From a virus: a DNA stretch of 64,000 bases. The translations under genes were made by a program, and so were the position numbers. Positions within the stretch are counted from its first letter, which is position 1. The number at the start of each line of letters is the position of its first letter. The stretch covers positions 92,596-156,595 of IMG/VR virus record IMGVR_UViG_3300035210_000132. The stretch is one strand, 5' to 3'. The notes beneath the pieces were generated by a model, which saw only the letters and a program-made list of their open reading frames with translations, had not been told where the DNA came from and did not search any database. Shown in pieces: positions 19,322 through 19,858 of the stretch.

Positions 19322-19400
19322 AGGTTCGAGTCCTGTCTTATCCGCGTAGCGGACAAGTCGCCCAACGGTAGGGCATCTGACTTTTAATCAGACATGATGA
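19322..19400 (+). pseudogene. tRNA fragments in permuted order: a T-arm + 3' acceptor half (19322-19347) followed by a D-arm + anticodon arm (~19350-19400, loop ctTTTaa). Degenerate or permuted tRNA.
   Basis: 'acaggTTCGAGTcctgt cttatcc g' then 'ggacaag tc gccc-aacggta-gggc a tctga-cttttaa-tcaga'. No contiguous cloverleaf. Confidence 0.3.
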
Positions 19401-19858
19401 ATCGCGGTCTACCCACTCGGGTGCTCCCTAATACTGCCCAGTAGGGCCCTTGCTGGTAGTAGGAAAACCAGCGCCTGCCGGCGGGCATCACCGGCTACGC
19501 CAAAACACTGGTTGGCAGGACACCAGGGACACCCTCATGACGGATCCTCAGGATGCCTTCGGGTGACTTAAAGATCCCAAACTGAGATTCCGAACCTGCC
19601 CCGTTCGAAGACGGTGATCTTCGCATCGTGCGGACCGTAGGCGCCTACGAGATGAATTTGCTGGTGAAGAGAGTGTGCCGACCGCTCTTGGATCCCACGG
19701 AAACGGAGAGTCCCTGCAGAGGTAAGTAGCAGCTCGGAAGTAAACCCAGGGGAGTCGAAAGGCTGAGATCCTGCCGACTGTGAAAGCCGCTCTCCCTCAG
19801 AGGTACCGGGCCACCGGGTAGCTCTGCGACCTTTGATGCAACAAAACAGGTGGCCCAT

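What the first reader, a model, noticed from the sequence alone, without database searches (positions are those of the whole stretch)
19322..19858. Permuted tRNA halves followed by a ~460-nt structured non-coding segment
A T-arm + 3' acceptor half ('acaggTTCGAGTcctgt cttatcc') lies directly upstream of a matching 5' acceptor strand + D-arm + anticodon arm ('ggacaag..gccc aacggta gggc..tctga cttttaa tcaga'). This 3'-then-5' order is the arrangement of circularly permuted tRNA genes and of two-piece RNAs. The next ~460 nt (19400-19858) has no credible ORF and has many local hairpins. It ends at tRNA-Gly(TCC). It may be a processed structured RNA (ribozyme-like, intron remnant or regulatory RNA) or just decay products of tRNA recombination.
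Basis: partly seen in the sequence, partly recalled or inferred. Interest (0 to 1): 0.5.

Follow-up and report, generated by a model that had tools for sequence, protein, structure and literature searches.

The report
Phage Y RNA that mimics tRNA
The "permuted tRNA halves" are the tRNA-like core of a ~145-nt Y RNA-like non-coding RNA (the known YrlA kind, which partners with Ro60 proteins) sitting inside a phage tRNA gene array, in an unusual form with a full anticodon-like arm; the ~430 nt after it show no sign of being a structured RNA.

Summary
At 19320-19392 (+) a T-arm, a closed acceptor hairpin, a D-arm and an anticodon-like arm lie in that order.

They are not debris and not a permuted tRNA gene. 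Flanking bases 19282-19302 and 19406-19426 pair into a two-part stem around an internal loop (GGCCGA / CACUCGG). The result is a ~145-nt RNA built like a YrlA-type Y RNA.

- **Homologues:** the same element occurs in related phages, at other slots of a syntenic tRNA array, and in dozens of metagenome contigs.
- **Covariation:** across 44 copies all six helices covary (95.9% of cells paired).
- **Ro60 link:** 11 distinct homologous loci have a Ro60-like gene next to the element. A covariance model built only from such Ro60-adjacent copies finds the window element at 93.8 bits (E 1e-21).

Differences from canonical YrlA:
- It has an extra anticodon-like arm. In the family the loop reads Y32-U33-NNN-R37 with a variable triplet; here it is CUUUUAA.
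- It is embedded in a tRNA array.
- No Ro60 gene was found in about 84 kb of this phage.
- It scores below the Rfam gathering threshold, but so do accepted phage YrlAs.

The 19427-19858 spacer has no structure signal, homologue or family match.

Verdict: a new variant of a known kind, of moderate interest.

The parts
19282..19291 (+). 5' strand of the outer closing stem (GAGUACCCGG), pairing with 19417-19426
   Evidence: MFE fold and pair list. The homologous helix covaries at 8 of 8 pairs in 44 copies.
19292..19295 (+). 5' side of the internal loop (CCGA). Together with its flanks it reads GGCCGAG (19290-19296), the counterpart of the YrlA GNCGAA / vertebrate GGUCCGA Ro60-contact motif.
   Evidence: Sequence. 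Family consensus YCGAR at the same place. Motif definition from Chen et al. 2014.
19296..19302 (+). 5' strand of the inner closing stem (GUAGACC), pairing with 19406-19412
   Evidence: The three modelled pairs covary.
19303..19319 (+). Variable-region-like linker CAACACGCAAAUCAAAU. It carries the family-conserved YUACAMGCA block (here CAACACGCA), and U19319 is placed to pair as U48 with A15.
   Evidence: Alignments A2 and A4. The YUAY feature of YrlA is described.
19320..19336 (+). T-arm (ACAGG UUCGAGU CCUGU) with canonical U54 U55 C56 R57 A58
19337..19357 (+). Closed acceptor-like hairpin (CUUAUCCGC GUA GCGGACAAG): 9 positions with one A.C mismatch and no CCA
   Evidence: The acceptor helix covaries at 6 of 6 pairs.
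19360..19374 (+). D-arm (GCCC AACGGUA GGGC) with A14, G18, G19 and A21, preceded by U8
19376..19392 (+). Anticodon-like arm (UCUGA CUUUUAA UCAGA). It has a tRNA-type loop (C32 U33 UUU A37 A38) and is absent from canonical YrlA.
   Evidence: In the family 39 of 44 copies have 7-nt loops. Among the 33 distinct 7-nt loop sequences, 31 have Y32, 25 have U33 and all 33 have R37, while the triplet varies. The stem covaries at 5 of 5 pairs.
19393..19405 (+). 3' linker (CAUGAUGAAUCGC)
19406..19412 (+). 3' strand of the inner closing stem (GGUCUAC)
19413..19426 (+). 3' side of the internal loop plus 3' strand of the outer stem (CCAC UCGGGUGCUC). It contains the family's most conserved 3' block, CACUCGG (19414-19420).
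   Evidence: ACU is invariant in A2.

Best explanation
Bases 19282-19426 (+) encode one ~145-nt non-coding RNA of the Y RNA-like (YrlA) class. It is transcribed with the phage's tRNA array.

**Anatomy (shown)**
- The 5' and 3' ends pair into a two-part stem around an internal loop. The loop carries the Ro60-contact-type motif (GGCCGAG opposite CACUCGG).
- The middle folds into a complete tRNA cloverleaf whose acceptor stem is closed by a loop. The Y stem leaves the cloverleaf at the variable-arm position.

**Mechanism (inferred from the family and from published work on YrlA and phage Yrl RNAs)**
1. The stem binds a Ro60/Rsr ring protein, encoded elsewhere in the phage genome or supplied by the host.
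2. The tRNA-like module is seen by tRNA-recognising factors: modification enzymes, RNase P, or a 3'-5' exoribonuclease such as PNPase.
3. The RNA therefore gates or tethers Ro60 in RNA quality control or turnover during infection.
4. The 5' end is probably set by 3' processing of tRNA-Gly(CCC), which ends 3 nt upstream.

The 19427-19858 spacer is not part of the RNA.
For: **Architecture**
- T-arm, closed acceptor, D-arm in that order, closed by a 10-bp plus 7-bp stem. MFE -52.3 kcal/mol, z = -3.7, 0 of 200 shuffles as stable.
- Rfam's only non-tRNA match is YrlA, over exactly this module.
- The accepted YrlA beside Ro60 gp220 of mycobacteriophage Bxz1 also scores only 32.5 bits against a gathering score of 69. 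Other Ro60-adjacent copies score 36-38 bits.

**Family**
- The same architecture recurs in clade relatives L013 and L025, in other slots of a syntenic tRNA array.
- It also occurs in 4 viral, about 30 metagenome and several MAG loci.

**Covariation**
- A MAFFT alignment folded with RNAalifold gives 23 of 31 pairs with compensatory changes.
- On 44 copies, 95.9% of cells pair. The covariation score is 0.80, against at most 0.14 when partners are slid, and 0 of 500 shuffles reach it. All six helices covary.

**Ro60 link**
- 11 distinct homologous loci have a Ro60-like gene beside the element. One scores Pfam TROVE 8.7e-20. The others were found by tblastn and HMM. Their family profile hits PDB Ro60 9nen at 1.1e-8 and the phage TROVE structures 9l5y and 9kop.
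- Model R2, built only from Ro60-adjacent copies, finds the window element as the top hit: 93.8 bits, E 1e-21, full length.
- The window shares the core CCCGGCCGAR / YCACUCGGG with the Ro60-adjacent L063 copy.

**Literature**
- YrlA features, the permuted-tRNA description, and phage Yrl RNAs binding phage Ro60 and host PNPase.
Against: - No Ro60/TROVE gene was found in the 64-kb window or in about 20 kb of flanking contig. This rests on Pfam scans of the largest ORFs, tblastn, and two HMMs over all ORFs. Published YrlAs lie within about 4 kb of Ro60.
- The Rsr motif is imperfect: GCCGAG instead of GNCGAA.
- The Rfam score is far below the gathering threshold.
- Canonical YrlA has no anticodon loop, and this RNA has one.
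- Many family members inside phage tRNA arrays also lack an adjacent Ro60 gene in the sequence held, so a Ro60-independent role is possible.
- There are no expression data and no predicted promoter or terminator.
Confidence: 0.75

Rival explanations
1. A true circularly permuted or split tRNA gene. RNase P and 3' trimming plus CCA addition open the acceptor loop. The product is a two-piece or re-ligated tRNA-Lys(UUU)-like molecule that is aminoacylated and decodes.
For: - All four cloverleaf arms are present, with tRNA-invariant bases and a canonical loop CUUUUAA.
- In the family the loop keeps Y32-U33-NNN-R37.
- 6 of 30 distinct copies encode N-CCA directly after the 3' acceptor strand, and about 12 of 30 encode N-CC. 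About 0.5 and 2 are expected by chance.
- M. smegmatis YrlA is cut by RNase P and receives CCA.
Against: - The window copy has an A.C mismatch in the acceptor stem, no CCA, and two extra pairs sealing the loop.
- An ordinary tRNA-Lys(UUU) is already present at 18947-19021.
- The closing helix conserves Ro60-type sequence motifs, not a bulge-helix-bulge splice site.
- 8 of 33 distinct family loops lack U33, and some triplets make no decoding sense, such as UUA and ACU.
- Copies sit beside Ro60-like genes.
Confidence: 0.08
2. A tRNA mimic that works without Ro60. It could be a decoy or sensor for host tRNA-targeting defences such as anticodon nucleases, or for tRNA-modifying or processing enzymes. 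The closing stem would serve only for stability.
For: - The element lies inside a large phage tRNA array, with no Ro60 gene in about 84 kb.
- Clade relatives and several other array-embedded copies also lack an adjacent Ro60 gene in the sequence held.
- Anticodon-like loops are conserved in form but carry different triplets. Some contigs hold tandem arrays of 4-5 copies with different triplets.
Against: - The most conserved unpaired sequences are in the closing stem's internal loop (YCGAR / CACUCGG), not in the anticodon loop.
- That core is shared with copies directly upstream of Ro60-like genes.
- Only part of the phage genome was examined, and a host Ro60 cannot be excluded.
Confidence: 0.14
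3. Pseudogene debris: the 3' end of one decayed tRNA gene next to the 5' part of another, with no function.
For: - tRNA arrays do rearrange. The scan pattern also picks up ordinary adjacent tRNAs and tandem tRNA-Gly copies.
- The N-CCA remnants suggest an origin from tandem tRNA genes.
Against: - Homologues keep every helix, including the closing stem outside the tRNA-like part, through compensatory changes.
- An independent model scores the window copy at E 1e-21.
- Relatives carry the same permuted element, not intact tRNAs.
Confidence: 0.02

Closest known systems
YrlA (Y RNA-like A; Rfam RF02553) of Salmonella, Mycobacterium smegmatis and mycobacteriophages such as Bxz1 and ET08 (Chen et al. 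2014, PMC4201824; structure bioRxiv 10.1101/312249)
   Same: - The order 5' stem strand, T-arm, closed acceptor-like hairpin, D-arm, 3' stem strand.
- tRNA-invariant bases in the T and D loops.
- A CGA-containing motif in the 5' strand of the closing stem.
- Homologues lie beside Ro60 genes, and phage-encoded examples exist.
   Different: - An extra 5-bp, 7-nt-loop anticodon-like arm follows the D-arm. The Y stem therefore leaves at the variable-arm position instead of replacing the anticodon stem. [quoted passage not shown]
- The score is 22.6 bits against a gathering score of 69.
- The element sits inside a tRNA array with no Ro60 gene within about 19 kb upstream or 44 kb downstream.
Yrl1/Yrl2 of Thermus phage phiLo (NAR 2025, PMC12135203)
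   Same: A phage-encoded Y RNA-like RNA with a 5'-3' stem flanking an internal loop that holds a CGAA-type motif. Yrl1/Yrl2 bind phage Ro60 and host PNPase, which is the mechanistic model adopted here.
   Different: - The phiLo RNAs lie directly upstream of the phage Ro60 gene.
- As far as the text read shows, they are described as stem-bulge-stem RNAs, not as four-arm tRNA mimics.
Deinococcus radiodurans Yrn1
   Same: A Ro60 (Rsr)-binding Y RNA with tRNA-like features, including a possible anticodon-like arm with a 5-bp stem.
   Different: In Yrn1 that loop has 6 nt, the T and D elements are oriented differently relative to the ends, and no full D-arm is evident.
Circularly permuted tRNA genes (Cyanidioschyzon merolae type, Soma et al. 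2007, as cited)
   Same: The 3' half lies upstream of the 5' half, the acceptor is initially closed, and the termini pair.
   Different: - Those precursors are spliced at a bulge-helix-bulge junction into a circle and then opened to give a working tRNA.
- Here the termini form a long conserved Ro60-type helix, and no such splice motif or enzyme is evident.

Membership tests
YrlA-type Y RNA (Chen et al. 2014; Rfam RF02553) | T stem-loop, closed acceptor-like stem-loop and D stem-loop in that order, with tRNA-like conserved bases | tested here: met
   19320-19374. Sequence and fold. The Rfam YrlA local alignment covers exactly these three hairpins.
YrlA-type Y RNA (Chen et al. 2014; Rfam RF02553) | 5' and 3' ends pair into a stem with an internal loop or bulge (the Ro60-binding module) | tested here: met
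   19282-19302 pairs with 19406-19426. The helices covary in the family.
YrlA-type Y RNA (Chen et al. 2014; Rfam RF02553) | GNCGAAN0-1G motif near the 5' end | tested here: inconclusive
   The window has GCCGAGUAG, which matches 5 of 6 positions (last A is G). It also reads GGCCGA against the vertebrate GGUCCGA. Family members at the same position show CGAA, CGAC or CGAG, and L017 has a perfect GACGAACG.
YrlA-type Y RNA (Chen et al. 2014; Rfam RF02553) | Encoded within about 4 kb of a Ro60/TROVE gene on the same strand | tested here: not met
   No TROVE or Ro60-like ORF in the window or in the flanks L019 and L080. The feature is met for 11 distinct homologous loci.
YrlA-type Y RNA (Chen et al. 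2014; Rfam RF02553) | Reaches the Rfam gathering score (69 bits) | tested here: not met
   22.6 bits. The Bxz1 YrlA (32.5 bits) and other Ro60-adjacent copies (36-38 bits) also fail, so the threshold excludes accepted phage members.
YrlA-type Y RNA (Chen et al. 2014; Rfam RF02553) | Bound by Ro60/Rsr, and modified or processed by tRNA enzymes (TruB, DusA, RNase P, CCA-adding enzyme) | not testable with these tools
   Needs biochemistry or RNA-seq of an uncultured phage-host pair.
Four-arm Y RNA-like family defined here (models R1 and R2) | Full-length match to a model built only from copies beside Ro60-like genes | tested here: met
   Window 19268-19439: 93.8 bits, E 1e-21, model positions 1-173 of 173.
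Circularly permuted tRNA gene | Acceptor 3' half upstream of the 5' half, with complementary strands | tested here: met
   CUUAUCC / GGACAAG, 6 of 7 pairs.
Circularly permuted tRNA gene | Termini joined through a bulge-helix-bulge splice motif, giving a contiguous working tRNA | tested here: not met
   The closing helix is 10 bp, an internal loop of about 4x4 nt, then 7 bp, with conserved YCGAR / CACUCGG. It is not 3-nt bulges spaced by 4 bp. Maturation itself cannot be tested here.
Canonical tRNA gene | Full cloverleaf in the standard 5'-to-3' order, detected by ARAGORN or Rfam tRNA | tested here: not met
   No ARAGORN call. The Rfam tRNA match covers only model positions 10-42, at 26.8 bits against a gathering score of 29.
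Two-piece (permuted) tmRNA, RNase P RNA, or group I/II intron in 19400-19858 | Match to the family covariance model, or a tag-peptide reading frame | tested here: not met
   No such Rfam match at E <= 10 in 18500-20400. ARAGORN finds no tmRNA in the window.

The most novel reading that the evidence does not exclude
The four-arm copies form a distinct class of Y RNA/tRNA chimeras whose anticodon-like loops are functional. The family keeps Y32-U33-NNN-R37 with a different triplet in each copy, has tandem arrays with different triplets, and often encodes N-CCA after the acceptor strand. These features would fit RNAs that are opened by RNase P into two-piece tRNA look-alikes. Such RNAs could serve as baits or sensors for host anticodon nucleases, or as substrates that recruit Ro60-exonuclease or repair machinery to damaged tRNAs. 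That would tie phage tRNA arrays to Ro60 RNA surveillance as a counter-defence.
Probability: 0.15. Interest if true: 0.8.

Novelty: new variant of a known kind. Interest (0 to 1): 0.45.

Why it matters
Y RNAs are the conserved partners of Ro60, and their tRNA-like module still has no known ligand.

This element shows that a YrlA-like RNA with a complete anticodon-type arm is widespread. The family turns up in phage tRNA arrays, in metagenome contigs and in Polyangiaceae MAG contigs. It is missed by the Rfam model and by tRNA finders, and it often lies far from any Ro60 gene.

Three consequences follow:
- Annotation pipelines are leaving a recurrent phage non-coding RNA uncalled.
- The family alignment and the two models made here give a way to find more copies.
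- The variable anticodon-like loops offer a concrete, testable handle on what the tRNA-like half of bacterial and phage Y RNAs recognises.

It also removes a false lead. There is no evidence for a permuted functional tRNA, a ribozyme or an intron in this stretch.

Tried and rejected
- **Near-identical DNA.** An exact or near-exact pattern search for the element in IMG/VR found nothing. Megablast of 25 kb of the window against GenBank phages also found nothing.
- **Blastn of the region** against phages matched only tRNA-Gly.
- **Synteny through the MVP-like protein.** Its relatives in the huge phages LR756500 and LR756501 have no tRNAs or Rfam matches nearby.
- **The search for related loci with rIIB in IMG/VR** gave no relatives. 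tblastn of rIIB against GenBank phages found only distant relatives, at or below 41% identity over half the protein.
- **Looking for the phage's own Ro60.** All of these were negative:
  - tblastn with Bxz1 gp220;
  - Pfam on 20 ORFs;
  - two HMMs over all ORFs of the window, L019 and L080;
  - a protein search with the Ro60-like family profile, comparing contig lengths with those of the rIIB-clade contigs. No length matched among the 120 hits listed of 1048, so this is inconclusive.
- **The spacer as a decayed Ro60 gene.** No trace was found.
- **The spacer as a structured RNA, second Y RNA, intron or ribozyme.** It has no fold signal, no Rfam match, no CM match and no promoter or terminator signal. 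The single GUCGAAAG motif read in it is within chance expectation by my own rough estimate.
- **A look-up of the last window ORF** was not on record.
- **Two reviews could not be read**.
- **Literature search for MVP-like proteins in phages.** None of the 12 papers listed mentions 'major vault protein'.
- **L078.** It has a DUF2828 protein after the element. I could not verify its relation to TROVE, so I did not count it as Ro60-adjacent.

Full report
**Setting**

The window is a fragment of an uncultured phage.
- It carries rIIA and rIIB, baseplate-type genes and a run of 32 ARAGORN tRNA genes on the + strand.
- The same sequence is held as two Logan contigs of run SRR10968280, 99.8 kb and 64.4 kb.
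- The nearest relatives share about 50% rIIB identity. They are metagenomic contigs of up to ~202-210 kb with a syntenic tRNA array.
- No cultured phage is close.

**Checking the observation**

Reading 19320-19392 confirms, in this order:
- a T-arm, ACAGG-UUCGAGU-CCUGU;
- CUUAUCC, then 7 nt, then GGACAAG;
- UC;
- a D-arm, GCCC-AACGGUA-GGGC;
- A;
- UCUGA-CUUUUAA-UCAGA.

The two acceptor strands pair at 6 of 7 positions (one A.C). Two more G-C pairs extend them, so they form one closed hairpin with a GUA loop.

No tRNA finder calls a gene here. tRNA-Gly(TCC) begins at 19859.

The second half of the observation does not hold. Bases 19428-19858 fold no better than shuffles (z = -0.27). They match no Rfam family at E <= 10 and resemble nothing in any locus fetched. 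They carry no trace of a decayed Ro60 gene and no promoter- or terminator-like site beyond chance. The only long ORF is a 96-aa one on the minus strand, which the public gene call did not call.

**What the tRNA-like part belongs to**

Folding 19276-19432 closes the four hairpins with a long stem (-52.3 kcal/mol, z = -3.7; pairs listed):
- 19282-19291 pairs with 19417-19426 (10 bp);
- 19296-19302 pairs with 19406-19412 (7 bp);
- between them lies an internal loop.

The 5' side reads GGCCGAG and the 3' side CCACUCGG.

Rfam's only non-tRNA match in the region is YrlA (RF02553). It aligns precisely over T-arm, closed stem and D-arm, at 22.6 bits.

Chen et al. 2014 define YrlA by this order of elements, by a 5'/3' stem, and by a GNCGAAN0-1G motif. 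That motif resembles the vertebrate GGUCCGA contacted by Ro60. They also require a location within about 4 kb of a Ro60 gene. [quoted passage not shown]

The low Rfam score is not disqualifying. The YrlA next to Ro60 gp220 of mycobacteriophage Bxz1 scores 32.5 bits. Copies beside TROVE genes in other loci score 36-38 bits, against a gathering score of 69.

**Related sequences**

An architecture scan found the same arrangement in clade relatives L013 and L005, each in a gap of the tRNA array.

A degenerate pattern (T-loop, 20-40 nt, D-arm) gave 5 loci in IMG/VR, 59 in metagenomes and 12 in GTDB genomes. These hits split cleanly:
- Where ARAGORN assigns the T-arm and D-arm to ordinary neighbouring tRNAs, the two 'acceptor' strands mostly do not pair, or the locus is a tandem tRNA-Gly pair.
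- Where neither arm belongs to a tRNA (about 35 loci, 30 distinct sequences), the strands pair at 6-7 of 7 positions across a short loop.

A MAFFT alignment of 16 such elements, folded by RNAalifold, gives six helices: outer stem, inner stem, T-arm, closed acceptor, D-arm and a hairpin after the D-arm. Of 31 pairs, 23 show compensatory changes.

Model R1 then found 44 full-length copies. On their alignment 95.9% of cells pair. The covariation score is 0.80, against at most 0.14 for slid partners, and no shuffle of 500 reaches it. Every helix has pairs changed on both sides. That alignment is fitted to the model. The MAFFT result is the independent check.

The conserved unpaired blocks are YCGAR in the 5' internal loop, YUACAMGCA before the T-arm, and CACUCGG in the 3' strand.

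**Link to Ro60**

- L014 (identical to L031) has a Pfam TROVE protein (8.7e-20) 0.9 kb upstream on the same strand.
- A family of 490-640-aa proteins with a C-terminal vWA domain lies beside the element in L015, L016, L027, L032, L035, L053, L059, L062, L063 and L066.
- The profile of that family hits PDB Ro60 (9nen, 1.1e-8, over most of its length) and the Thermus phage TROVE structures 9l5y and 9kop.
- In the GTDB set, a Polyangiaceae MAG contig (L091) has two elements followed by the same kind of gene.
- Among loci where the pattern hit ordinary tRNAs, only L068 has a Ro60 gene. It has its own YrlA matches directly upstream of that gene.

To avoid circularity I built model R2 from eight Ro60-adjacent copies only. 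I left out the window and its clade. R2 finds window 19268-19439 at 93.8 bits, E 1e-21, over all 173 positions. L013 and L025 score about the same.

The window's core (CCCGGCCGAG / CCACUCGGG) is almost identical to that of the Ro60-adjacent L063 copy (CCCGGCCGAA / UCACUCGGG).

**What is different here**

1. **Extra arm.** After the D-arm and one A there is a 5-bp hairpin with a 7-nt loop, in the place of a tRNA anticodon arm. The Y stem therefore emerges where a variable arm would. Across the family 39 of 44 copies have 7-nt loops. Among the 33 distinct 7-nt loop sequences, position 32 is a pyrimidine in 31, position 33 is U in 25, and position 37 is a purine in all 33. The middle triplet varies. 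The window loop, CUUUUAA, looks like that of tRNA-Lys(UUU). The rest of the element is not a recent copy of the window's tRNA-Lys(UUU) at 18947-19021: by eye, the T-, D- and anticodon stems differ.

2. **Context.** The element sits in a tRNA array, 3 nt after tRNA-Gly(CCC). In L013 the homologue lies between tRNA-Gln(CUG) and tRNA-Thr(UGU). In L025 it lies between tRNA-His and tRNA-Asp. It is kept in the clade but changes slot. Other phage-like arrays (L039, L046, L055, L044/L069, L073) hold one to five copies.

3. **No Ro60 nearby.** No Ro60-like gene is present in the window or in the 10-kb extensions on either side. A contig-length comparison meant to find one elsewhere in the clade was inconclusive.

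4. **CCA remnants.** 6 of 30 distinct copies encode N-CCA right after the 3' acceptor strand, and about 12 encode N-CC. This points to an origin from tandem tRNA genes, and perhaps to RNase P/CCA processing as shown for M. smegmatis YrlA. The window copy has no CCA.

**Mechanism**

*Shown:*
- a conserved, covarying RNA with a Ro60-type stem and a full tRNA-like cloverleaf;
- homology to copies next to Ro60-like genes.

*Inferred from published systems:*
- The stem binds a Ro60 ring.
- The tRNA-like module engages tRNA-recognising proteins or an exoribonuclease. In the RYPER complex Y RNA tethers Rsr to PNPase. Thermus phage phiLo Yrl RNAs bind phage Ro60 and host PNPase.
- Whether the partner here is phage- or host-encoded is unknown.

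*Rivals:*
- A real permuted or split tRNA is unlikely. The acceptor has a mismatch, there is no CCA, the Ro-type motifs are conserved, and some triplets are nonsensical.
- A Ro60-independent decoy or sensor is possible and is not excluded by the missing Ro60 gene.
- Debris is contradicted by the covariation.

**Verdict**

The element is a member of the known Y RNA-like (YrlA) kind in function-defining anatomy. It fails two formal YrlA criteria, Ro60 adjacency and the Rfam score. It also has an added anticodon-like arm that, in the sources I could read, is not described for YrlA. I rate it a new variant of a known kind. The 430-nt spacer remains unexplained, and nothing marks it as functional.

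Noticed in passing
window 18369-18436 (+): A probable tRNA-Trp(CCA) with a minimal D-arm (GAUC-AGG-GAUC), missed by ARAGORN and by Rfam at gathering score. It folds as a cloverleaf (z = -2.6). It sits at the head of the array, where relatives L013 and L025 have a tRNA-Trp.
   Followed up: partly
window 20264-20336 (+): A tRNA-like gene with an 8-nt anticodon loop (CACAUUGG). ARAGORN labels it tRNA-??? with anticodon 'attg', and Rfam tRNA scores it 45.9 bits. It lies between tRNA-Gln(UUG) and tRNA-Gln(CUG), so it could be a four-base-anticodon or frameshift-type tRNA, or a defective Gln copy.
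   Followed up: partly
window 37951-38052 (+): A ~100-nt RNA-like element with a 9-bp acceptor-type stem (GGGGUUGGG...), a D-like arm, a hairpin with a 6-nt loop, and two T-arm-like hairpins (CCCGG-UUCGAUU-CCGGG and UUCGG-UUCGACU-CCGAA). No tool calls it.
   Followed up: partly
window 38055-38140 (+): A probable class II tRNA-Ser(GGA) with a long variable arm and a short T-stem. ARAGORN and Rfam do not call it.
   Followed up: partly
window 34366-34404 (+): An isolated T-arm-like minihelix (GCGUG-UCGG-UUCGACU-CCGA-CUAGACGC). It has the same T-arm as tRNA-Lys(UUU) at 18995 and lies at the end of an ORF, between tRNA-Leu genes.
   Followed up: no
window 30710-33361 (+); L009 1804-4599; LR756500, LR756501 and LR756503: An 883-aa protein inside the tRNA array matches Pfam MVP_shoulder (7e-28) and a major-vault-protein repeat (Vault_3). 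It is conserved at ~41% identity in clade relatives and in huge uncultured phages. Relatives L005, L009 and L013 also encode a WGR-PARP_reg-PARP protein just after rIIB; that gene is absent from this window. Together with a Y RNA-like RNA whose family partner has a TROVE domain, this resembles the eukaryotic vault parts list. None of the 12 papers listed by the literature search mentions 'major vault protein'.
   Followed up: partly
window 8886-10294 (+): A group I intron (Rfam 60 bits, 9361-9634) lies just before a truncated-looking ThyX (Thy1) ORF at 9620-10294. An HNH_3 endonuclease ORF at 8886-9542 precedes it. ThyX appears to be split by an intron carrying a homing endonuclease.
   Followed up: partly
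window 24537-25415 (-): A GGDEF diguanylate-cyclase-domain protein (5e-33) is encoded on the opposite strand in the middle of the tRNA array. Relatives L005 and L013 have a GGDEF gene at the head of their arrays.
   Followed up: no
window 3182-4621 (-): A 479-aa protein combines a LigD-type 3'-phosphoesterase domain with ATP-dependent ligase domains. It is a possible nucleic-acid end-healing and sealing enzyme.
   Followed up: no
L044 1003-2139, L069 1078-2272, L086 2055-3249, L073 1042-2442, L055 206-1605: Some contigs hold tandem arrays of up to 4-5 Y RNA-like elements, in places alternating with tRNA genes. Each copy has a different anticodon-like triplet. L086 and L091 are binned in Polyangiaceae MAGs.
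   Followed up: partly
window 19427-19858: A 432-nt stretch between the Y RNA-like element and tRNA-Gly(TCC) with no gene call, no fold signal, no homologue and no family match. Its role, if any, is unexplained.
   Followed up: yes
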